The notes under the pieces were generated by a model. It was not told where the DNA came from, did no database searches, and saw nothing but the letters and a program-made list of their open reading frames with translations. A stretch of DNA of 64,000 bases. Origin: Mytilus trossulus (Eukaryota). A program made the translations under genes and the position numbers. Positions 3,682 to 56,543 of the stretch are shown piece by piece; the stretch's first letter is position 1; every line of letters starts with the position of its first letter. The DNA is taken from positions 31,868,001 through 31,932,000 of the forward strand of contig NC_086374.1 of the NCBI RefSeq assembly GCF_036588685.1. The letters are read 5' to 3'.

Positions 3682-5073
3682 ATGATGGAAGATCACGACT
3701 CTTGTCCAGTTTGCTTTGAGAATTTCATTATGCCAAAACTGTTGCCCTGCAAGCATACCTTTTGTCTTCGTTGTTTGAAGGACTACTGCGATCAACAAAA
3801 GACTATTTCAAATGAAAAGTTAACTACCACAGATAAAGATTCGAACAATGCAATAGATAAAGATAAAATCATTTGTCCTCTTTGTCGAAACGTGTGCACT
3901 ATACCAAACAAAGGATTTCAAGATTTATTTACAAATTACTTTATAAAAATTTCAAAACCGTCTAAGATTTGTGAAATTTGTGTACAAGAAAATATTTCAA
4001 CATATTGTACAACTTGCTTTAAGTATAAGTGTAAGGTTTGTTTTCGTCAATATGATCATAGAAAAAAGACAAGTGGTAAATCCGAGGTAACAGAGGATGA
4101 CCGACCTGATCCTCGTCTTCCCTTTCATCTAATGTTCATTGATGGAATCAGAACTGAATATATTTGTGAACTGACGAAAACCTTTCAGTTAGATGTTCCA
4201 CCCAACGATGAAGGAAAGCGTATGGTATATTCTGTCATTGCCTCAAGGAAAGGAGGGGCATATGTTCTCCCTCAGACAGTTCCCTTTGTTTTGAAGTTTG
4301 GAGCAAATACGGATTTACTAGCAAAAATAAGGACACCTGAAACTTGCACATGTATAATCGAACTTCAGAATGGAGACCTGCTTGGAATTTTCATTGGTAG
4401 TCGTCTAATACTGCGCTATACTTGTGGTGGTTGGTCGCATTTTGCTACAGCATTGGATTATTTTCCCTTTGGACTCGCCGAGTTGTCTGATAGTAAAATT
4501 GTTGTATGTGGTCCGAATGCTATACCTTCAGTTGGTATCAAAGAAGACAAACTATATGGCATTGTTAGAATGTATTCGGCGGATGGTGATGCACTTGGGG
4601 AAATTGAGAAAAAAAACAAAGAAAACAGTTTTCTTTCACCTTCTTTGGCTGTGTCTAATAGACGAAGCAAAACATTCGCAATTAGCGACCAGAAAAGATT
4701 ATGTGTAACTATATACCACGAAAACGGAGACGAATTAACAACTTATAATGGGGGGACATCAATGTTTAACTTACCGCTGAACCTTTTTGGATTTCAATCA
4801 CAGGGAATTTTTCAGCCAATCGAAATGTGTTGTAGTCAAGCCGGGAACTTCTTCATATCTTGTACAGACGGTACATTGCACGTGTTGAATCCATATGGTA
4901 AAATCAAGGGTGTCGCCTTAGCCAACTGTGCCGACGGATTTGGGACACTGACGGATGTCGCCGTTGACATAGATGGAAACATTTGGTGTAGTAATTCTGA
5001 ATTAGGAACAATTAAATTATTTCGATTAGTGAGATATAAAAACCATTTAAAAACAGGCTCTATATTGCCATGA
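3682..5073 (+). CDS. RING / B-box-like / NHL-like beta-propeller protein (TRIM-NHL-like) paralog B
   Basis: 463-aa ORF with a C3HC4 RING (CPVC..PCKHTFCLRC..CPLCR), TNYF motif, a Cys-rich B-box-1-like module and C-terminal propeller-type repeats (DVAVDIDGNIWCSN). Acceptor TTTCTTTAAG lies just before the ATG. Confidence 0.85.
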   Translation: MMEDHDSCPVCFENFIMPKLLPCKHTFCLRCLKDYCDQQKTISNEKLTTTDKDSNNAIDKDKIICPLCRNVCTIPNKGFQDLFTNYFIKISKPSKICEICVQENISTYCTTCFKYKCKVCFRQYDHRKKTSGKSEVTEDDRPDPRLPFHLMFIDGIRTEYICELTKTFQLDVPPNDEGKRMVYSVIASRKGGAYVLPQTVPFVLKFGANTDLLAKIRTPETCTCIIELQNGDLLGIFIGSRLILRYTCGGWSHFATALDYFPFGLAELSDSKIVVCGPNAIPSVGIKEDKLYGIVRMYSADGDALGEIEKKNKENSFLSPSLAVSNRRSKTFAISDQKRLCVTIYHENGDELTTYNGGTSMFNLPLNLFGFQSQGIFQPIEMCCSQAGNFFISCTDGTLHVLNPYGKIKGVALANCADGFGTLTDVAVDIDGNIWCSNSELGTIKLFRLVRYKNHLKTGSILP

Positions 5074-19500: not shown

Positions 19501-22500
19501 TTCAAACACTTCACTCAGTCAAATAAAATTGGTTACCTCGGTATTATATTTCCAAATCATATCATCCTTGCTAAACATTTCTTAGTCTGCAATGCCTGTT
19601 TATGAATCATAGCAAAATAAAAGTCTCAGATTAGAATTCTCTTTCTGCATTATATCTACTTTTTCACTCCTTAATTTCTACAAACCTGGTTTAAACTGAA
19701 CCTTAGCACCAGTCTCTGATTGGATTTTCTTGATCATATCTCCATTCTTTCCAATTACAATTCCAACTGCACTTCTTGGAACTTGAATCTACAGAGAAAA
19801 AAAATCACATATTTATATACTTAAGAAGTGAATTATTTTGAGCTTTCTACATGTCTAATAATTCATAAAATATATCATTCCTTCCTTGCACATGTTTCTG
19901 AGAACAAACTGATATTCAAGGGTATTTTCTTACAAGTTCATACTTCAGAACTGGTCCAAAATAACTTCAAACACAATTTTTTATTAACTAATATCAAGTC
20001 TCAATAACAAATGATTTTTAGCAATCTTAAAGAGTACATTTCAAAATGCTGGCTGGTATATATCTTTAGTGTGTGGTTTATGAACTAGTCCAGATTTTTT
20101 GGGATACATTTATTTCATTTTTCAACTAATTTTTGATACCCAGTATTCAATAAGAATTGTCCAGAACTGTTGTTTCAGTTTTTTTCTGCTTTCTTTCGCA
20201 TGTTTAACTATATCTGAAGATCAAGACCTTTTTTCTCTGAATATGAGTTGCAAGCTGTATAAAAGATTACAGCATTTTTCTTTATTATTAAGTTTGTCTA
20301 CTATCAAAATGGAGGATAAAACTTTGTAACTTACCTCTGACCCGCTGGAATTTTGACCACCAAAGTTGCCATATCCACCTCCCATAGACTGAAAATATAT
20401 ATAATCAATTAGTGTCATACACATCAAATATATACATGCAAGTAAGTTGTTTAATGTAACTATTTTTCAAACCCCTAATGAGGGATCTACTTTTGTTAAG
20501 ACTAGGCAATGCTAACCTTCATACTAAAATAATCCTGTAGTAAAAATTTAATGTAGATATAATCATATTAGAAACAAGTGTTGTAAGGTCTACTATCAAA
20601 CCCCATTCACAGAATGTATACACATCCTTATGGTGTTAGCGATATCTTACATTAATGTAGCACATGACGACACCCATTTGACAGAACAATGGTCACATGG
20701 GCTCTAATTATGTGCATTTTGCTTCAATATTTATCAGTAGATTCAATAAGTCAACTTAAGTAAACATCACAGACTAAAGTTATTAATCTCTTATTAGAGT
20801 CCTTTGAATAGCAATGCAGAAAACTCAATGGTGAGGTTTTAAAAGCACGACTGAAATATTCATTAGTTATAGCACTAAACCAATTGAAGCTTGTCACCAG
20901 CCTCCTGTACACTCCTCAAACAATTACTTAAATGATGAATTTAGTTAAAAATCTTACAAGTTTGAAAATTAGCTGCACAAAATCTTACAAGTTTGAAAAT
21001 TAGCTGCACACCATGACTTTTAATTGAACCCATTCTAGATCCAAAGAGTGAAAAAAAACCAAAAAAACCAGAGATTGGCATAAAATTGATGACTTACAAT
21101 CATAGACCTTCAAAACTGATCATAAGTATTGCCTATTAATTTTAATTTTTCCACAAGAGTTAATGACAAGTGTTATGTTTGTTGTAAGGTCTACTATCAA
21201 ACCCCATTCACAGAATGTATACACATCCTTATGGTGTTAGCGATATCTTACATTGATGTAGCACATGACGACACCCATTTGACAGAACAATGGTCACATG
21301 GGCTCTAATTATGTGCATTTGGGTCATTATATCTTTGGTTAACAGATAAGTAGATTTTTAAAATAAGACAACTAAAGTATCCATCACACACCTATATTTT
21401 TTTGTGAATGATATGCCACTCATCACATCAACCAAGGACTGTTACTCCTGAATGACGGTGAAAATCATTTTCATTAACCCCGACTTCCATTTCTTCATTA
21501 GCATCAAAATAGAAAGCCAAGGTTTGAAAAGCATCATTAAAACTATCTGACTATTCACAAATTATTGCACAGAAACAATTGGAGCTAGCATTCTGTACAA
21601 ACCTCAAACATTAACTGGAATCCTCAAATTTAGAGATTTTGGTTCCAAGGTTTTTTCTTGGCAAATTGTGTGAACGACTCTTGAGTGAGACCATTCTAGA
21701 TCCTAAGTGTTAACTTGCTATCTTAGACAGTTAAGACTTTTAAAACTTAATTCACCATAGCTGAAAAGTTTTACCTTTTTATTTTAATTTTTCCAAAGAG
21801 TTTTATGGCCAGTGTTTAATTGTTGTAAGGTCTACTATCAAACCCCATTCACAGAATGTATACACATCCTTATGGTGTTAACAATATCTTACATTGATGT
21901 AGCACATGACGACACCCATTTGACAGAACAATGGCCACATGGGCTCTAATTATGTGCATTTGGCTTTCATTATAACTGTTGTTATCTGTTGATTCAATAT
22001 TAAAGAAACTAATGTTATCATCACTGATGGCAACTTTAGTTATAAATCTGTCAACTAGAATAAAAAATTTTACACTGAAAACTGTCTATTTGTACTGCAC
22101 CTCCATTTCCTTTTTTCATCAATGACAAACTAACAGAAGCTTAAAGAATTGGTTAAACAGTGAGCTTGTTGCACAGAAATAACAGAAATGCCACTTTCAA
22201 GTCAATCAAGGACCATAATTTACTCCTGAACAACATTGAAAATAAGTATTAAACTTGACCTCCATTTTGTCAATTGCAACAACATAGTGAGGTTTGAAAA
22301 GCATCATGAAAATATTCATAAGTTAGCACAGAAGAAATTAGAGCTAGCAGTCTCTGCAAAACAATAAATGGGTTTGTCTTGACAGCAAGATTTTTGGTCG
22401 GACATTTTGTCAGTCAGACAGAGTTTGGGATACACTGAGCTAGCCACCAGCCTCCTATACAATCCTCAAACAATAACTGGATTAATACTTAAATTAATTT

Positions 22501-25500
22501 TGTCAAAAATCCTGTTCCCTGGAAATTTCCTGCAAGCATCCTAGAGTGAAACAAGAAAGTGTCCATAGTACACAGATGCGCCATCCGCACTCAAGTTTTC
22601 TATGTTCAGTTGACTGTGAAAATGGGGGAATATCTCTCATTTGGCATTGGAATCAGAAAGATCATATCATAAGGAACATGTGTACTAAGTTTCAAATTAA
22701 TTGAACTTAAACTTCATCAAAAACAACCTCAATCAAAAACTTTAACCCTATGCAGGACAGACGGACAGACTCTGACCAGAAAACATAATGCCCATAAATG
22801 GAGCGTGAAAAACACCAGGGCATCCAATACAAGTGTTGAATTGCCATTTTAGACCTTCAAAACTTATCCCATCATAGCTGATCATAAGTATTGCCTATTA
22901 ATTTTAATTTTTCCACAAGAGTTAATGACAAGTGTTATGTTTGTTGTAAGGTCTACTATCAAACCACATTCACAGAATGTATACACATCCTTATGGTGTT
23001 AACAATATCTTACATTGATGTAGCACATGACGACACCCATTTGACAGAACAATGGTCACATGGGCTCTAATTATGTGCATTTCTGCCAATGCATATTCAA
23101 ATCATTTGCAGTATCTTGGTAGTTTTGGCTCTTTACACTTTAAATACTTAAGAATATTCAAGCAGGATTTTTTTTTAATAATTCCTGGGTTTAAAGCTTC
23201 TTATGCAATTCTCAATAAATAATGACAATAAAACATTTTGTATTTCAGTAAATATTTCAAATAAGAAAGTTTGAGATTCTTCTTCAAATCACTTTTACAA
23301 GTATGGTAATAGACTGTACCATCACTTTTTCAAGTATGGTAACAGACTGTACAACTATAATACTTCAATTTATTTTAAGGACTTCCTTTTTTTCCTGGGT
23401 CATAACATTTTCCAAGGAGGATCCCCAAAAGTTTATCTTTAAGGAAGTAGAAAAAATCACTCTAAGCTCATCTCAGTCAAAGGGGGGCATAAGTCTGATA
23501 TTTATTTCTATTATTAAAAAAAAATTCTACTTAATATACATGTGCATCTTTTAAGTTTTTAAACTGTTTTTGGATAGTGTTGTAAGGTCTACTATCAAAC
23601 CCCATTCACAGAATGAATACACATCCTTATGGTGTTAGCGATATCTTACATTGATGTAGCACATGACGACACCCATTTGACAGAACAATGGTCACATGGG
23701 CTCTAATTATGTGCATTTTCTGTTGATTTTTTAAGTTTAAGGTGCAACATGACTATTAAGAAATATTGAATTAATGGGATGCAATTATCTTAAATGGTCC
23801 ATTTCTATTTTTTAAGGTACAGGAATATTAGCTCTCAAATTTTTCGCCCCAAAATTTACGATATTGCAGTCCACAAGAAATTGAGATATGATCATTGATC
23901 CTTGGAGTTAAAAAAAAATCTCATCATAATCAAATGTAAGTTTTGTCTTTAAATTGAAACAACTTAATGTGGAGATGAAGCTAAAATTCAATCAATTTTG
24001 TTTCTAAAGAAAATTTAGAGGCACAACTGACTTACCAATGGTCCTTTAGATACATGTGTGTGTGAGTGGGGTGGGTGGGGGGAGGGGGACATTTATTTTT
24101 TCTTAAAAAATATTAGTCTTTAAATACATTTGCCTCCTTAATTTTAGTTGTTTTTTGATAAAGTGTTGTAAGGTCTACTATCAAACCCCATTCACAGAAT
24201 GTATACACATCCTTATGGTGTTAGCGATATCTTACATTAATGTAGCACATGACGACACCCATTTGACAGAACAATGGCCACATGGGCTCTAATTATGTGC
24301 ATTTTGCTTCAATATTTATCAGTAGATTCAATAAGTCAACTTAAGTAAACATCACAGACTAAAGTTATTAATCTCTTATTAGAGTCCTTTGAATAGCAAT
24401 GCAGAAAACTCAATGGTGAGGTTTTAAAAGCATGACTGAAATATTCATTAGTTATAGCACTAAACCAATTGAAGCTCGTCACCAGCCTCCTGTACACTCC
24501 TCAAACAATTACTTAAATGATGAATTTAGTTAAAAATCTTACAAGTTTGAAAATTAGCTGCACGCCATGACTTTTAATGGAACCCATTCTAGATCCAAAG
24601 AGTGAAAAAAACAAAAAAACAAACAGAGATTGGCATAAAATTGATGACTTACAATCATAGACCTTCAAAACTGATGATAAGTATTGCCCGTTTATTTTAA
24701 TTTTTCCACAAGAGTTAATGACAAGTGTTATGTTTGTTGTAAGGTCTACTATCAAACCCCATTCACAGAATGTATACACATCCTTATGGTGTTAGCGATA
24801 TCTTACATTAATGTAGCACATGACGACACCCATTTGACAGAACAATGGTCACATGGGCTCTAATTATGTGCATTGTCAACAATCAAAACCATCTAAGTAA
24901 CCAGTGGGAGCCATAGTTATTACCTGCTACCTGCATTATTTTTTCATACAAAATGTGATGGGTTTTTTCATGATATATTATATGTACAATATCTCTGACT
25001 TTAACACACTGTATTATGTTAATCTTGAACTTGCTAAGGAATCTAATGATTTAGAGAGGTTTACAGTTGTTTTAAATGTATATACTTACTTCCATTTCCT
25101 TCTCTGCTAATAAATCCATGACCATTTCTTTTGCTCTCTACAAATGAAAAAGAGAACACTTAAGCATTGACAAATTAATAATATAATGCTTTGTTGAGTG
25201 CAGCCTGAAGCAACCACAGAGATCGTACCCTGAACAGTTGGTGCAAATTTGGACACCTAAATATATACAACTGCAAAAATTTTGAAAGGATTAGAATCAT
25301 GTTCGGTACTTGTCATCTAAATCCCATCACAATTATCAATTTCAACATTTCCTAGACATTTTATTATCATAAATGTTTGTCTGTTCACTTTACATAAATT
25401 TACACTAATAATCTTTATATTTTCATCACTTTGAGCTAATTATTAACACCCTTTTTATGATTAGAGTTTCTTGATTTTAAAATTCCAATAGGGAACATAC

Positions 25501-28500
25501 TTTATATAAATGTATCAACAAAGCCATTGGACAAAACGTCTCAATAAATTGGGTTATTGATTAAAGTTTCTGCAATAAAGCACGAAATAAAGAAATGATT
25601 TGATAAACATTAAATGTCACAAAGTATATATAACTAAATATATGTCCAAGTTTGCTATTATAATATATTTGGAAGCTACAGACAACAATAATCTGTCATT
25701 CCATCACTTTTATAGAATTTTCCGTAGAAACATCCTTTTTAATTAGATTTTAGTTGAGAGAGGGGCATCTTACCTGACAGTTCTGATTATCTCCTGTTAT
25801 TCTCAAAGGTTTTTCATTGGCTGTTTGAATATTGCTGTCTTGTATCATAACCATTTTAACACCTGCCCTTTCCTATAATTAATAAACATCATGTCATTAT
25901 ACAAAGAGTAAAGAATTTAAAGCTTATAGACAAGTTCACTATCTTACATATATAGTCTTCACACTGAGTGGCAGCCAAGGCTTGTAAAATTGCTCTTGGG
26001 CCTGTAAAAATCAAATCTACAGGCCAACAGAATCAAACTAAAAAATTTCAAAATTTGAGATCCGGGCCTGTAGATTTAACAGTTTATTGTGAAGACTGCG
26101 ATGTAAATAAAGCAAGTTTAACAAGTTTTGAATAGCTTGACCAAAGTCAACAATGGCTGTTAATATTTGGGGAGAAAATTGTATTCCTATAAAAATAAAC
26201 AGGAATATCTCAAGAAAATCCTTAACATCGTACTGTGAAAATTAAATGCAGTTCTATTTAATAAAGCAATGTCTAAAGCTTATTTTTACCTGCAAGACTT
26301 TAATGGTCTCTCCTCCTTTTCCAATAATGAGTCCCACCTTGTTACCAGGAATCAACATTTCTACAACAGTCTGCATGTCTCCATACATTCCACCATTGCC
26401 ACCTCCTCCGTTGCCACCACCACCACCACCGACTGGTCCTCCTCCCATTCCCATCTCCATACCATTACCACTCTGTCCTCTGGCAATGATATCCTGCATC
26501 TGCTGCTTACAAGCACTGTTAAGGAAAATGAATTCATTCTTTTACTTTAACTGTACATGATTTTGTCAAAGATTCAAGTCCTCAAAATATGTGTATATAT
26601 ATATTCAATCGGAAAATTTTCTATACTACTGTCTAGTGTTATTTTGTATCTTTACCTGGATGAGCAATTGAACCAAAAATAAGACCTGTGATATATTTCT
26701 ATACCAGACGAAAACAGACATTTAATATCATAAAAATTAACTAACACTCTAGTGTGAAATGTATATCATAGTGACCAAAAATCTGCTAAACCGGCTGAGC
26801 TATGCAGATAATAATATTTACTTATATTATTAGAATGTTTTTGACAAATTGATATCAATACAAATACCACAAAAAAATTGGTATTCAACAAATAATAATG
26901 AATTCACAGTATGTCAGGTATTAACCTTATTTTCAATTCAGCTTCCTGTTGGTGATAAAATTACAAAAACAAAACCTTTGTACATACCCAATAGAAGCAG
27001 CACTCCCTGTTAGTTGGCATGGTCTATCTGGAAGTCCACCACTGTCTAAAATTGAAACCAACAAATTTCAGATTACAAACAATCTCATAAAAGACTAATT
27101 ACTTAAGGTGATTCCATATTATTCCCCTGCAACACAGTTAAGGAATCAGATAGTCAGCACTAATTTTCATATATTCAACCAATATACTAGATATAAGAAA
27201 AAAAAGTTCATTTATATTGTAATGTCCATTAAACATCATCATTGTTATATCTTGGTTTTTCTACTTTACATTGATTGATGAGATCAATTGATATACAAAA
27301 TCATTAAATGTAAGCACTTGTCACCTGGATAATAAATTTTATCAGTTGACTTGAAGCTTGTTTCTTTTGAGTGCACATTCTTTTGACATCTTATTCTTGT
27401 CAAAATTAATGTAAAGCCAGGACAATCAGAGGTTTTACTGAATTGTTTAACTTTTGTCATGATGTTTGACATAGTATCTCATTTTAAATTAAAATAAATC
27501 TTACATTACATGCGACATTGTTTATTTTGATTCAAATTGACGCCAAGTGCAAAATAGGAATAAAAAATGACAATAAAGCAAATTTCAAATAAGCAGCAGG
27601 GGAGTGATAGAAGAAAACAACAACTCTATATTAACTTTCAATAAAAACACTAAATAATAATAAATGCCAAGATTGAGTCCTTTTAAATTGGTAGGTGTTT
27701 GTCAGTGAATAAAACAAACATAGAAACTCACCAGGAGCAATCTGTATTTTACACCCAGTCTCTGCCTGTAGTCTTGTTATCTGCTCTCCTCCTTTTCCTA
27801 TTACTATAAGAAACAAAGAGTGCACACACTGAAATACCTCGCCAGCTAGCTGATAATCATTGAATCCGATGTTGAAAGATTAAAGGTCAAATTTCAAGAA
27901 GCTATGAAAATGTTGTATATGAAATCGACCAAAATGTCATATAAAGTATTACAGTTAAAAAAATATATTAGTTTTTGACTAACAGAAAATAGAACAGCAA
28001 CAAATCTGAAAACATGTCGAATGAAACTTGGTATAAAATATGAAGAAGCTATGAATAATAGTTGCTGACTAAATGACGAACATTTCATATTATAGTTATA
28101 GGGAGAGAAAAATCTTTCTCCAAACAAAAACAATGAAAAAAACTTATTGAACTGTAAAATCTAACTTACTCAACCCAACCATCTTATCTGGGACTCTAAA
28201 TTCTTCTGTGACCACCATCCCTAATCCTGCATGTGGGCCGGGCTTCTGCAGAGCTGGATTGACTGCTGGGGGCGATGTGGGTCCTCCTTTTCCTAGCTGT
28301 TGGTTAATTCTTTGAGCTGCTTCTTTAGCAGCTTGAGCTGCTGAACTTCTACTAAAAAATTCAAATTGATATCTATTAGATAATTCTGTTTACAAACATA
28401 ATCAAATGATAAAACTCCTTTTTTTTTTGGTGTGTAAAGATAATTCTGTAAAATTCCATACAAAATTATAACCACCCTGATGATATCAGAAAAATTCAAA

Positions 28501-35289: not shown

Positions 35290-35333
35290 GCGTCACTGAT
35301 GAGTCTTATGTAGACGAAACGCACGTCTGGCGT
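35290..35333 (+). ncRNA. Type I hammerhead ribozyme
   Basis: GCGUCA-CUGAUGA-GUCU(UAUGU)AGAC-GAAA-CGCACG-UC-UGGCGU: stem I, conserved core, stem II, minimal stem III and GUC site. Confidence 0.85.
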
Positions 35334-35648
35334 ACTAAATTATAATCCTGATACCTTTGATAACTATTAACACCACTGGGTCGATGCCACTGCTGGTGGA
35401 CGTTTCGTCCCGAGGGTATTACCAGCCCAGTAGTCAACACTTCGGTGTTGACATGAATATTAATAATGTGGTCATTTTTTTTTTATAATTTTCCAGTTAA
35501 CAAAACATTGAATTTTTAGAAAAACTAAGGATTTTCTTATCCCAGGCATAGATTACCTTAGCAATATTTGGCACAACTTTTTGGAATTTTGGATCCTCAA
35601 TGCTCCTCAACTTTGTACTTGTTTGGCTTTATGAATATTTTGATATGA

Positions 35649-42133: not shown

Positions 42134-43708
42134 ATGACGACAGAAGAATTTACCTGTCCAATATGTTTTGACGGAATCATACTACCAAAGCTACTCGAAT
42201 GTGGGCATACGTTTTGTTTAAAATGCATAAAAGATTATTCCGACGACATTAAGACCGACAGTAGGGATTTAGTATGTCCACTGTGTCGTTCTAAGTTTAA
42301 CCTGCCAACGGGAGGACCTTGTCAACTAATCACCAATTATTTCGTTGATATACCAAAGCCGCAAAAGTATTGCCTTAAATGCCAGGAAACTGAAAGAATA
42401 TCAAGTTTTTGTCTTGTTTGTGGTTCATTATTTTGTAAAAAGTGTTTCAAGTCTCACATTCACTCAATCGTTGATAATAACTCCTCGGATGACGAAAACG
42501 ACGAAGACGGTTCGATCCCTATACACTTGCTACTACAAGGAGTTCGGACAATGTTTACTTGTAAATTGCAATCTTACTTCGTTATAGACATTCCTCAAGA
42601 CAACCAGGGGAACCGTACTATTCATTCTGTACGAGCGTCAAAATATGGAGGAGTTTATGTTGTGCCCGATCAGGTTAATTTCATTTTAAAATTTGACCAG
42701 ACTGACAGAATACATGAAAAAATAAGGATAAGAACACCATCCCAAATGCAGTGTAGTGGAGTTATTGAAACGGACATTAACACTTTGTTGGCAACATTTC
42801 CTGTTCATAAATTGATTAAGAAATACGCATTCAGCCGCTGGTCCAACTTTGCAACTTGCCAAGACTTTTACCCACTTGATTTAGTAGAATTGTCCAATGG
42901 AAATATACTCGCATGTGGTCCAAATCGATTACTAGAGCGTAAGGAAAATTCTATCAGACGAACAGGGTATCTTCAGGTATACTCATTTCGGGGAGAACCG
43001 TTGTTCAGACTAGACAAACTATTGGGCAACAGTAAGCCTTTAACATATCCACGTATACTGGCATACGACAAAAATAGGATGGTCATCTCTGTGGTCGACC
43101 AAGGAAATAAAGAAATGATAGTGATACAAGAAAAAGACAAATCGTTCCACATTTACAAAGGGAGTGGCAGGCCGATAGTTCCATTTCCATTATCATTATT
43201 TGGAATAGGTGACGATTTTTTCCCATTAGGACTCTGTTGCGGTCCAAATGGACATTTTATAGTGACTTCCGACGATGGATATCATATGGTAGATCGGTTT
43301 GGAAAATTGGTTGGAGTTGGTCAGACAGACGATAAAGATGGCTTTGGAAGACTTGTTACAATTGACGGAAAAGGAAGTATATGGTGTAGTGATCCTCAAA
43401 ATGGTGCCATCAAAACTTATAAGGTTATTGATTACAGGAATGAACTCGACAGTAATAAAAAGTCTGGTATCCGAAAAGGTTTGTCGTCCGATTTCCGAAA
43501 TAACACGCCTGGTATCCGTGGTAGTATCTCGTATGGTGTCCGTGGACTTCCCATGTCTGGTATCCATGGAAATATGCCGTCTGGTATCCGTGGAAATATT
43601 ATGTCTGGTAGCCATGAAAATTTCACGTCTGGAAGCCATGGAAATATCACGTCTGGTAACCGTGGAAACATCTCTTTATCGAATAGATCACATTTTTTTT
43701 CAACATAA
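42134..43708 (+). CDS. TRIM-NHL-like paralog C with an 8-aa-repeat C-terminal tail
   Basis: The true start is probably ATG 42134, directly after acceptor CTTTTCTTTTCAG; the ORF-track start at 42095 lies in a transposon end. Contains RING, B-box-like, acidic linker and propeller regions, then an SGxxGNxx-like repeat tail. Confidence 0.85.
   Translation: MTTEEFTCPICFDGIILPKLLECGHTFCLKCIKDYSDDIKTDSRDLVCPLCRSKFNLPTGGPCQLITNYFVDIPKPQKYCLKCQETERISSFCLVCGSLFCKKCFKSHIHSIVDNNSSDDENDEDGSIPIHLLLQGVRTMFTCKLQSYFVIDIPQDNQGNRTIHSVRASKYGGVYVVPDQVNFILKFDQTDRIHEKIRIRTPSQMQCSGVIETDINTLLATFPVHKLIKKYAFSRWSNFATCQDFYPLDLVELSNGNILACGPNRLLERKENSIRRTGYLQVYSFRGEPLFRLDKLLGNSKPLTYPRILAYDKNRMVISVVDQGNKEMIVIQEKDKSFHIYKGSGRPIVPFPLSLFGIGDDFFPLGLCCGPNGHFIVTSDDGYHMVDRFGKLVGVGQTDDKDGFGRLVTIDGKGSIWCSDPQNGAIKTYKVIDYRNELDSNKKSGIRKGLSSDFRNNTPGIRGSISYGVRGLPMSGIHGNMPSGIRGNIMSGSHENFTSGSHGNITSGNRGNISLSNRSHFFST
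43463..43675 (+). repeat. Coding 24-bp minisatellite, 9 degenerate units, in the paralog C tail
   Basis: Unit approximately TCTGGTATCCGTGGAAATATCACG; the second unit is 21 nt, so frame is kept. Confidence 0.8.
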
Positions 43709-55047: not shown

Positions 55048-55778
55048 GTACAACATTTCGACTCTCATGGATAGTTGTCTCATTGGCAACCGTATCACTT
55101 TTTATGTTATGTGTAAGTGTTTATTAATAATCTTATCTGGACATCATCATACAGCTAAACGAAGTTTATTGACATGTTAATTCGGACAGTTATTCAAAAA
55201 CTTAAGACTTTCAGACTTTTTCTGTTTGTTGAAAAGATAGATGTATCAATAACACCTCTTGGCCTTTAATTGACATACTGTGCTGTATTAAGAGAGCTAG
55301 TATAATGTTTACTTTGCCGACCAGTAGGCTACTGGTCGGCAAAGTAAAAAGTATACACAATCGTCATTCGTCAAAGGTAGACAACATGTAGGCCAAATCT
55401 TAATTAACCTTCCCTGCCTAACTGTTCAAACAAATATTTCATTAAACACCAGCAAGTAACCAATTTGCATACAGATGACGGAATAATTAAGTATATTAAG
55501 GCAATATTATTGTTTATTCATAATCAACATTTTTAAACGTACAAGATAGAAGATCTGCATTAATATTTGTGTATAAAAGTGGCATATGAATTCTTTTTTA
55601 ATTGTGAAAAAATAAGTTAAAACTTACCGAAGTTGTCATTCTCTGTAAGGAAGAAAATAGATAAAACTATGGAAAAAAAATAATAATCCTTATCTATATG
55701 TAATATAATGGTAATTGAACGGTAAATGAGGACATAATTTATCAGGGAAATATTAAAAAACCTTATAAGGCTTGGGCA

Positions 55779-56329
55779 TGTTCGTCTGGTATTCGATTTG
55801 AATATTATAAGGTTAATGTTAGTCTGGTATTCGATCTGAATATTATAGTGTTAATGTTCGTCTGGTATTCGATTTGAATATTATAAGGTTAATGTTAGTC
55901 TGGTATTCGATCTGAATATTATAAGGTTAATGTTCGTCTGGTATTCGATCTGAATATTATAAGGTAATGTTCGTCTGGTATTTGAATATTATATGGGTAA
56001 TGTTCGTCTGGTTTTCGATTTGAATATTATAAGGGTAATGTTCGTCTGCTATTCGATTGAATATCATAAGGGTAATGTTCGTCTGCTATTCGACTGAATA
56101 TCATAAGGGTAATGTTCGTATAGTATTCGATTTGAATATTTTAAGGGTAATGTTAGTCTGGTATGCGATACAAATATTATAAGGTAATGTTCGTCTGGTA
56201 TTTGATCTGAATATTATAAGGGTATTAATTGTAGTCTGGTATTCGATTTGAATATTATAAGAATAATTTTAGTGTGGTATTCGATCTGAATATTATAAGG
56301 GTAATGTTTGTCTGGTATTTGAATATCTT
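55779..56329. repeat. 38-bp minisatellite, about 14.5 copies
   Basis: Unit approximately TGTTCGTCTGGTATTCGATTTGAATATTATAAGGTTAA. Confidence 0.9.
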
Positions 56330-56543
56330 AAAGAATCTTGTTTGTCATTAAAAGCATCAACCAAAGTTGAAATCAGCGACTACCTTAACCAAAAACATAT
56401 TTAGTTTATAGCGTATCTTTTTTTTTTTACCTTTTTTGGTATTTGACTAAAAAAAACTTTTTTTTTGTATCAAAGTAAGATTTAAAGAAAACCATGGATT
56501 AGATTAAATAAAATATACACATAAGATATGGTGGAGATTAATC

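What the first reader, a model, noticed from the sequence alone, without database searches (positions are those of the whole stretch)
20589..20642. 3' pseudouridylation pocket matches a conserved LSU rRNA site (yeast 25S U2349/U2351 equivalent)
Seen: the pocket strands of hairpin 2 are UCGCUA and GAUAGUAGA (TAGCGA and TCTACTATC on the + strand). Joined, they are the exact complement of 5'-UCUACUAUCUAGCGA-3'. From memory of eukaryotic LSU rRNA, this is the segment ...CCCUAUCUACUAUCUAGCGAAACC..., where yeast snR82 guides Psi2349 and Psi2351. Two registers fit: 7+6 bp with 14 nt to ACA (U2349 equivalent) and 9+4 bp with 16 nt to ACA (U2351 equivalent). One pocket may therefore guide two nearby uridines. 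The 5' pocket (AAUUAGA / GUCGUC) has no clean target that I can identify; LSU helix-69 AUGAC-U-CUCU is only a partial candidate.
Basis: partly seen in the sequence, partly recalled or inferred. Interest (0 to 1): 0.7.

Follow-up and report, generated by a model that had tools for sequence, protein, structure and literature searches.

The report
Seven-copy intronic rRNA guide, three targets
Seven near-identical copies of a small RNA related to human SNORA6/SNORA62 sit in one intron of an RNA-binding-protein gene, and their guide loops match three uridines of this animal's large ribosomal RNA, which they likely mark for chemical modification, one loop possibly serving two neighbouring uridines.

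Summary
Window 20576-20718 (minus strand) is a box H/ACA snoRNA homologous to the SNORA62/SNORA6 family (Rfam RF00091, full length, E 5.5e-12, but 68.5 bits is under the 80-bit cut-off). Seven copies lie in one spliced 4,701-nt intron of a FUBP-like KH gene. The genome's own 28S carries the target. Of 1,324 rRNA uridines, the 3' pocket's two best hits are U2673 (9+4 bp, 16 nt to ACA) and U2671 (7+6 bp, 14 nt). U2671 equals human U3832, the family's published target. U2673 equals yeast 2351 and Xenopus 2993; it is C in human, is pseudouridine in Xenopus, and has no guide in the published Xenopus table. The U2673 register fits the hairpin better by about 2.7 kcal/mol. Helix 69 fits worse. One pocket serving two uridines has tested precedents and is untested here (about 50%). 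This is a new member of a known kind, with one useful testable lead.

The parts
20576..20718 (-). H/ACA snoRNA copy 1 (SNORA6/SNORA62 homologue), about 141-143 nt
   Evidence: Rfam RF00091 model 1-154, 68.5 bits, E 5.5e-12
20703..20709 (-). 5' pocket, 5' strand AAUUAGA; pairs 3' of 28S U2455 (an eighth pair is possible with the U at 20710)
20668..20671 (-). 5' pocket, 3' strand GUCG; pairs 5' of 28S U2455; starts 13 nt before the H box
20653..20658 (-). H box ACAUUA (ACAUCA in 4 of 7 copies)
20637..20642 (-). 3' pocket, 5' strand UCGCUA (UUGUUA in copies 3 and 4)
20589..20597 (-). 3' pocket, 3' strand GAUAGUAGA; starts 16 nt before ACA (UAGUAGA starts at 14 nt)
20579..20581 (-). ACA box, 3 nt from the modelled 3' end
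21177..21319 (-). snoRNA copy 2
   Evidence: 68.2 bits
21818..21960 (-). snoRNA copy 3; two C-to-U changes in the 3' pocket's 5' strand give G-U wobbles and a more closed pocket
   Evidence: 67.2 bits
22939..23081 (-). snoRNA copy 4; same pocket changes plus G-to-U in the upper stem; most closed pocket, likely the weakest guide
   Evidence: 59.2 bits
23575..23717 (-). snoRNA copy 5
   Evidence: 68.5 bits
24161..24303 (-). snoRNA copy 6
   Evidence: 68.8 bits
24732..24874 (-). snoRNA copy 7
   Evidence: 68.7 bits
20389..25089 (-). Host intron, 4,701 nt, GT..AG, holds all seven copies in the host's sense
   Evidence: joint 20388/25090 in contigs of 4 of 4 runs
20335..20388 (-). Host exon downstream of the cluster
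   Evidence: joints 19788/20335 and 20388/25090
25090..25137 (-). Host exon upstream of the cluster
   Evidence: joints 20388/25090 and 25137/25774
26290..26514 (-). Host coding exon with the start of a KH domain; best PDB matches are far upstream element-binding proteins (FUBP1, KHSRP)
   Evidence: phmmer E 5.5e-08 to 1j4w_A; 5 of the 6 best of 16 hits are FUBP1 or KHSRP

Best explanation
This is an intron-encoded box H/ACA RNA homologous to SNORA6/SNORA62, present in seven copies, that likely guides pseudouridine formation at three uridines of 28S rRNA: U2455 through its 5' pocket, and probably both U2673 and U2671 through two alternative pairings of its 3' pocket. Shown: boxes, hairpins, family homology, intron position, complementarity to the genome's own 28S, and equivalence of the sites to human U3616, human U3832 and Xenopus U2993. 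Inferred: the copies are released from the spliced intron, bind dyskerin/Nop10/Nhp2/Gar1 and pair with pre-rRNA. In the 16-nt register GAUAGUAGA pairs over U2671 and exposes U2673, with the helices nearly flush on the upper stem. In the 14-nt register the GA lets go, UCGCUA extends over U2673 and U2671 is exposed, at the cost of a 4-nt bulge. Each binding would modify one uridine, so both need a 2-nt slide or rebinding. My odds: working guide for at least one of the two 0.9; U2673 0.75; U2671 0.62; both 0.5; U2455 0.75.
For: RF00091 full-length hits for 7 of 7 copies, E 4e-11 to 7e-9. U2673 and U2671 rank 1 and 2 of 1,324 uridines, beyond nearly all shuffles. U2671 minus U2455 is 216 nt, the same as human 3832-3616 and Xenopus 2991-2775, the two sites listed for SNORA6 in the supplement of PMC6984369. 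That supplement's 28S alignment shows pseudouridine at Xenopus 2989, 2991 and 2993 and C at human 3834; '2993' has 0 hits in the file and all 9 hits for 'U299' or '28S-299' are 2991. The RF00091 and nematode ceN58 consensus lines both keep GA 16 nt before ACA (read by eye), which only the U2673 register pairs. Fungal snR82/HACA_2 hairpin 2 is assigned to yeast 2351 (PMC5824354). One pocket serving two close uridines was shown in yeast assays for SNORA57 (18S 1045/1046) and SCARNA8 (U2 43/44). Pockets tolerate four unpaired bases and modify the 5'-most free U (PMC6049503). Cores are 96-100% alike over 21 pairs while most 100-nt flanks are 42-66% alike.
Against: No pseudouridine map, mature-RNA end or protein binding is available for this organism. 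Scores of 59-69 bits are below the 80-bit cut-off. The 5' pocket is 13 nt from the H box against the usual 14-16, and on its own it is not beyond chance: 4 of 100 shuffles by pair score, at least 10 of 60 by energy, where 28S U3186 ranks first on duplex energy alone. The U2671 register leaves 4 unpaired bases under the upper stem and is 2.7 kcal/mol worse. The whole RNA does not fold better than shuffles (z -0.84) and the unconstrained 3' hairpin misfolds. A Drosophila guide with the same pairing as SCARNA8 failed at the second position, and SNORA71 failed at two predicted positions, so two registers on paper need not both work. Copies 3 and 4 have weakened, more closed pockets.
Confidence: 0.5

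Rival explanations
1. The 3' pocket works only in the 16-nt register and modifies U2673 (yeast 2351, Xenopus 2993). U2671 is left to another guide, such as a SNORA8-like RNA. The family's assignment to human U3832 would then be secondary, following the U-to-C change at human 3834.
For: Better energy and near-flush geometry; GA at 16 nt kept in vertebrate and nematode consensus lines; fungal hairpin 2 assigned to 2351; SNORA8 also listed for U3832/U2991.
Against: The UA of UCGCUA is also kept in both consensus lines and its U has a target partner mainly in the 14-nt register; the human family keeps this pocket although human has C at 3834.
Confidence: 0.25
2. The 3' pocket works only in the 14-nt register and modifies U2671 (human U3832), as published for SNORA6 and SNORA62. 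The extra GA pairing only tightens binding.
For: Published assignment; 13 Watson-Crick pairs at a canonical 14 nt.
Against: It needs a 4-nt bulge under the upper stem and is the weaker register; it leaves Xenopus pseudouridine 2993 without a listed guide.
Confidence: 0.14
3. The copies are not processed into working guides (seven in one intron may block exonucleolytic release), or they bind rRNA only as folding chaperones.
For: One snoRNA per intron is described as the wide rule in animals (PMC1821038 passage); the spacers share no clear long hairpin that could be a cleavage signal; some predicted guides modify artificial but not native rRNA (PMC8522698).
Against: These seven are the only RF00091 matches found in the genome (39 of 34,759 candidates scored); boxes and pockets are intact in 5 of 7 copies; cores are far more alike than flanks.
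Confidence: 0.08
4. The 5' pocket's real target is not U2455 but 28S U3186 (14 nt to the H box) or helix-69 U2586.
For: U3186 has the canonical distance and the best duplex energy alone (-16.8); the equivalents of both sites are pseudouridine in human and Xenopus.
Against: Both must open the upper stem: totals are -30.2 and -29.9 against -34.5 for U2455. U3186 uses 3 G-U pairs, one beside the target. U2455 is exactly the SNORA6 site.
Confidence: 0.15

Closest known systems
SNORA6 (ACA6), Rfam RF00091; listed targets human 28S U3616 and U3832, Xenopus U2775 and U2991 (PMC6984369 supplement rows)
   Same: Full-length model match; both pockets fit the same two sites at the same 216-nt spacing.
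   Different: Host is a FUBP-like KH gene, not RPSA; seven copies in one intron; 13 nt to the H box; this 28S has U at the human C3834 position, which opens a second register.
SNORA62 (E2), Rfam RF00091; human 28S U3830 and U3832; also in sponge FAU introns (PMC4515611 passages)
   Same: Same 3' pocket sequence and U3832 target.
   Different: The 5' pocket here does not pair around U2669, the U3830 equivalent (no fit of 3+3 pairs), so it is not SNORA62 proper.
Yeast snR82 (25S pseudouridines 1110, 2349, 2351) and fungal HACA_2 / Neurospora NcACA2
   Same: Same rRNA sites; three targets for two hairpins, so one pocket must serve two; hairpin 2 is assigned to 2351.
   Different: No sequence homology was detected by Rfam. 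Which snR82 pocket guides 2349 could not be read: the original papers are not held.
Nematode ceN58 (Rfam RF01645)
   Same: The 3' hairpin consensus shares both pocket strands and the 16-nt spacing.
   Different: Weak score (22.4 bits, cut-off 60, E 0.017) and an unrelated 5' hairpin; no paper on its target was found.
Multi-target pockets: SNORA57 (18S 1045/1046) and SCARNA8 (U2 43/44)
   Same: One pocket with alternative registers on close uridines, tested in yeast.
   Different: Those targets are adjacent; here they are 2 nt apart, and nothing is tested.

Membership tests
Box H/ACA guide snoRNA | H box ANANNA in the hinge | tested here: met
   ACAUUA or ACAUCA in 7 of 7 copies
Box H/ACA guide snoRNA | ACA triplet 3 nt from the 3' end, after the second hairpin | tested here: met
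   20579-20581 by model alignment; the mature end itself is not mapped
Box H/ACA guide snoRNA | Two hairpins, each with an internal pocket | tested here: inconclusive
   5' hairpin folds freely (z -2.19, 8 of 200 shuffles); the 3' hairpin forms only with the pocket or lower stem constrained; whole RNA z -0.84
Box H/ACA guide snoRNA | At least 8 bp of bipartite pairing around an unpaired U | tested here: met
   13 bp at U2671 and at U2673; 11-12 bp at U2455; rule from PMC6049503
Box H/ACA guide snoRNA | 14-16 nt from the target to the box, 3' pocket | tested here: met
   14 and 16 nt; rule
Box H/ACA guide snoRNA | 14-16 nt from the target to the box, 5' pocket | tested here: inconclusive
   13 nt counted from the first paired base, one short of the usual range; the rule is called not absolutely essential in PMC8522698
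Box H/ACA guide snoRNA | Intronic, in the sense of a spliced host | tested here: met
Box H/ACA guide snoRNA | Mature RNA bound to dyskerin; target uridine modified | not testable with these tools
   only assembled contigs were available
RF00091 SNORA62/SNORA6 | Covariance score at or above the gathering cut-off of 80 bits | tested here: not met
   59.2-68.8 bits; filed as a homologue, not as a curated Rfam member
RF00091 SNORA62/SNORA6 | Significant full-length sequence and structure homology | tested here: met
   model 1-154, E 5.5e-12; next full-length family E 0.23
SNORA6 type | 5' pocket fits human U3616 and 3' pocket fits U3832 | tested here: met
SNORA62 type | 5' pocket fits human U3830 | tested here: not met
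   no fit at U2669
scaRNA (snRNA guide) | CAB box in an apical loop and an snRNA target | not tested
   no UGAG is seen by eye in either apical loop (CAB consensus recalled); snRNAs were not fetched or scanned

The most novel reading that the evidence does not exclude
The ancestral job of the SNORA6/SNORA62 3' pocket is the yeast-2351 uridine, with sliding to the 2349 uridine. It would be the unlisted guide for Xenopus 28S pseudouridine 2993, overlooked because human has C there. The SNORA6-type 5' pocket would predate vertebrates, and this animal would release seven copies from one polycistronic intron by cleavage between them.
Probability: 0.4. Interest if true: 0.5.

Novelty: new member of a known kind. 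Interest (0 to 1): 0.33.

Why it matters
The RNA class, the family and the U3832 and U3616 targets are known, and single pockets with two targets have precedents, so this is mostly annotation. Its value is a concrete correction to test. The 3' pocket fits a uridine that is modified in yeast and frog but absent in human, which would supply a guide for a frog modification that has none in the published table and would link the animal family functionally to fungal snR82. It also offers a natural case for measuring 2-nt register sliding, and a seven-copy single-intron cluster whose processing is unexplained.

Tried and rejected
Rfam at gathering threshold over the whole window gave 0 hits; the family appears only by E-value. 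Helix-69 U2586 as the 5' target: -29.9 kcal/mol with the 5+4 pairing; my first model of it used the wrong 3' strand and is superseded. U3186 as the 5' target is kept only as a rival. U2669 has no fit to either pocket. Other family members: none by model (39 of 34,759 candidates scored, so not exhaustive); the pocket pattern gave 19 matches, 7 in the cluster and 12 elsewhere against 10 control matches, read as chance. Expression: no RNA holder listed; contig depth over the snoRNA is what collapsed copies would give and is no evidence; run X7 laid nothing. Selection in a related population: 2 differences in 141 core bases, both in apical loops, against 15 in 268 spacer bases (Fisher p 0.065); pooled with seven intron pieces picked from the displayed table, gaps ignored, p 0.03; one contig under depth 5 had 5 differences. 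This is weak. The two C-to-U pocket changes in copies 3 and 4 keep pairing as G-U but also close the pocket, so they are not counted as compensatory. Cryptic exons between copies: two weak candidates, both overlapping snoRNAs, none among the listed joints (10 joints not shown). Shared spacer hairpin: not found. Papers: 10 searches showed none assigning this pocket to the 2351-equivalent; only some listed papers were opened and subscription papers are missing. Four look-ups for three primary papers were not held and the fungal snoRNAome supplement was unavailable; these may already show the snR82 pocket assignment. PMC9997552 and PMC5778458 passages added little. snRNA targets were not scanned. 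No other invertebrate genomes could be searched.

Full report
What is there. The finding's coordinates are the two strands of the 3' pocket of a small RNA on the minus strand at 20576-20718. Rfam finds nothing in the window at curated cut-offs. By E-value the stretch matches the whole SNORA62/SNORA6 model RF00091 at 68.5 bits, E 5.5e-12, against a cut-off of 80. It has an H box at 20653-20658 and ACA at 20579-20581. The 5' hairpin folds on its own (z -2.19); the whole RNA does not beat shuffles (z -0.84) and the free 3' hairpin misfolds, but it takes the expected shape once the pocket strands are held open.

Copies and host. There are seven copies between 20576 and 24874, and no others were found in the 1.3-Gb genome by DNA search or by model (39 of 34,759 candidates scored). 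Their cores are 96-100% alike with six variable positions in 138, while most 100-nt flanks are 42-66% alike; a few pairs share a flank at 71-100%, the mark of piecewise duplication. Contigs from 4 of 4 runs join 20388 to 25090 with canonical ends, so all seven lie in one 4,701-nt intron, in the host's sense. A nearby host exon matches FUBP1 and KHSRP KH domains. The organism looks like an invertebrate; its repeats recall a bivalve, which I did not test.

The 3' pocket. The target segment occurs 207 times in the genome against 0 for the control. I took a full rDNA unit and scored both pockets against all 1,324 uridines of 18S, 5.8S and 28S. The 3' pocket's best sites are U2673 (9+4 bp, 16 nt to ACA) and U2671 (7+6 bp, 14 nt). 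No shuffle of 100 reaches the first score and one reaches the second. By energy they give -22.1 and -21.0 kcal/mol, the next site -14.3, and 0 and 1 of 60 resampled rRNAs do as well. With the hairpin included, the U2673 register is 2.7 kcal/mol better and leaves one free base on each side of the upper stem; the U2671 register leaves four on the 3' side.

Which sites these are. The supplement of PMC6984369 (table rows and part 3 of 12 read, machine-extracted text, so figure labels may be lost) lists SNORA6 for human U3616 and U3832 and SNORA62 for U3830 and U3832. Its 28S alignment shows pseudouridine at Xenopus 2989, 2991 and 2993 and C at human 3834. Yeast has modifications at 2340, 2347, 2349 and 2351 (PMC5699541, section 5 part 1), with the same spacing as human 3823, 3830, 3832 and 3834. 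So U2671 is human 3832 and yeast 2349, and U2673 is yeast 2351 and Xenopus 2993. No guide for 2993 appears in that supplement. Read by eye, the RF00091 consensus and the nematode ceN58 consensus both keep the GA that starts 16 nt before ACA; only the U2673 register pairs it. Fungal snR82 and HACA_2 use hairpin 2 for yeast 2351 (PMC5824354 passage; PMC2780460 table row).

The 5' pocket. The top site by pair score is 28S U2455, with 8+4 Watson-Crick pairs flush against the upper stem. It lies 216 nt before U2671, exactly as human 3616 lies before 3832 and Xenopus 2775 before 2991, and the flanking sequence is that of human pseudouridine 3616. On its own the match is not beyond chance (4 of 100; at least 10 of 60), U3186 outranks it on duplex energy alone, and the distance to the H box is 13 nt against the usual 14-16 (bioRxiv 10.1101/569061 passage). 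The case rests on landing at the family's known site and on the total energy: -34.5 against -30.2 for U3186 and -29.9 for helix-69 U2586. The pocket does not fit the U3830 equivalent, so the RNA is SNORA6-type. PMC4515611 (passages) reports SNORA62-type RNAs in sponges and suggests SNORA6 arose by duplication of SNORA62; a SNORA6-type pocket in an invertebrate suggests that this happened early or more than once (inference).

Mechanism. Inferred from established H/ACA biology: the RNA assembles with dyskerin, Nop10, Nhp2 and Gar1 and pairs with pre-rRNA. In each 3' register the other uridine is paired and so protected, and two marks need a 2-nt slide or a second binding. This is plausible: pockets accept up to four free bases and modify the 5'-most free U (PMC6049503 passages), and SNORA57 and SCARNA8 each modify two close uridines from one pocket (PMC6984369 and PMC5473140 passages). 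It is not assured: the same passages record guides with good paper pairing that failed (also PMC8522698 passages). Copies 3 and 4 carry two C-to-U changes that turn G-C pairs into G-U and let the pocket close on itself; they are probably weaker guides. How seven copies leave one intron is unexplained. One per intron is described as the usual rule in animals (PMC1821038 passage), multi-snoRNA introns in Drosophila are recalled only (paper not held), and I found no shared spacer hairpin.

Verdict. It is a new invertebrate homologue of a known family with two known targets. The dual use of the 3' pocket is about even odds. The most useful new point is that the better register aims at a uridine that humans lack and frogs modify without a listed guide; ten paper searches did not show this in print, but primary yeast papers and subscription journals were out of reach. 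The scan's index had no look-alike DNA; a note on another genome names snR82 as nearest kin and did not change my reading. Interest 0.33.

Noticed in passing
window 35290-35333 (+), repeat family also near 35638, 54952, 56769, 58654: Type I hammerhead ribozyme-like match (RF00163, 30.1 bits, cut-off 34, E 0.00094) inside a dispersed repeat with 5 copies in the window (D14); possibly a retrozyme-like element.
   Followed up: no
window 20389-25089: Seven snoRNA copies in one intron with spacers of 428-978 nt; spacers 20719-21176 and 24304-24731 are near-identical at both ends, which suggests a recent block duplication or gene conversion.
   Followed up: partly
window 20888-20928, 21576-21616, 22438-22478, 24473-24513: A 41-nt spacer motif recurs in four spacers at 68-100% identity (D20); it could be a remnant of the duplicated unit or a processing signal.
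   Followed up: partly
window 22550-22770 and 553-773: A high-copy genomic repeat is inserted in the longest spacer, between copies 3 and 4.
   Followed up: no
L013:1271-3917 (G000:C13): This rDNA unit is rearranged: two 5.8S copies with LSU fragments between them, ahead of a full 28S.
   Followed up: no
window 20576-20660 versus Rfam RF01645: Nematode ceN58 shares the 3' hairpin pocket with SNORA62/SNORA6 although Rfam does not place it in that clan.
   Followed up: partly
window 43497-43664 and 55761-56359: A 24-nt tandem repeat (5 overlapping units listed) and a 38-nt tandem array (families D13, D3, D6).
   Followed up: no
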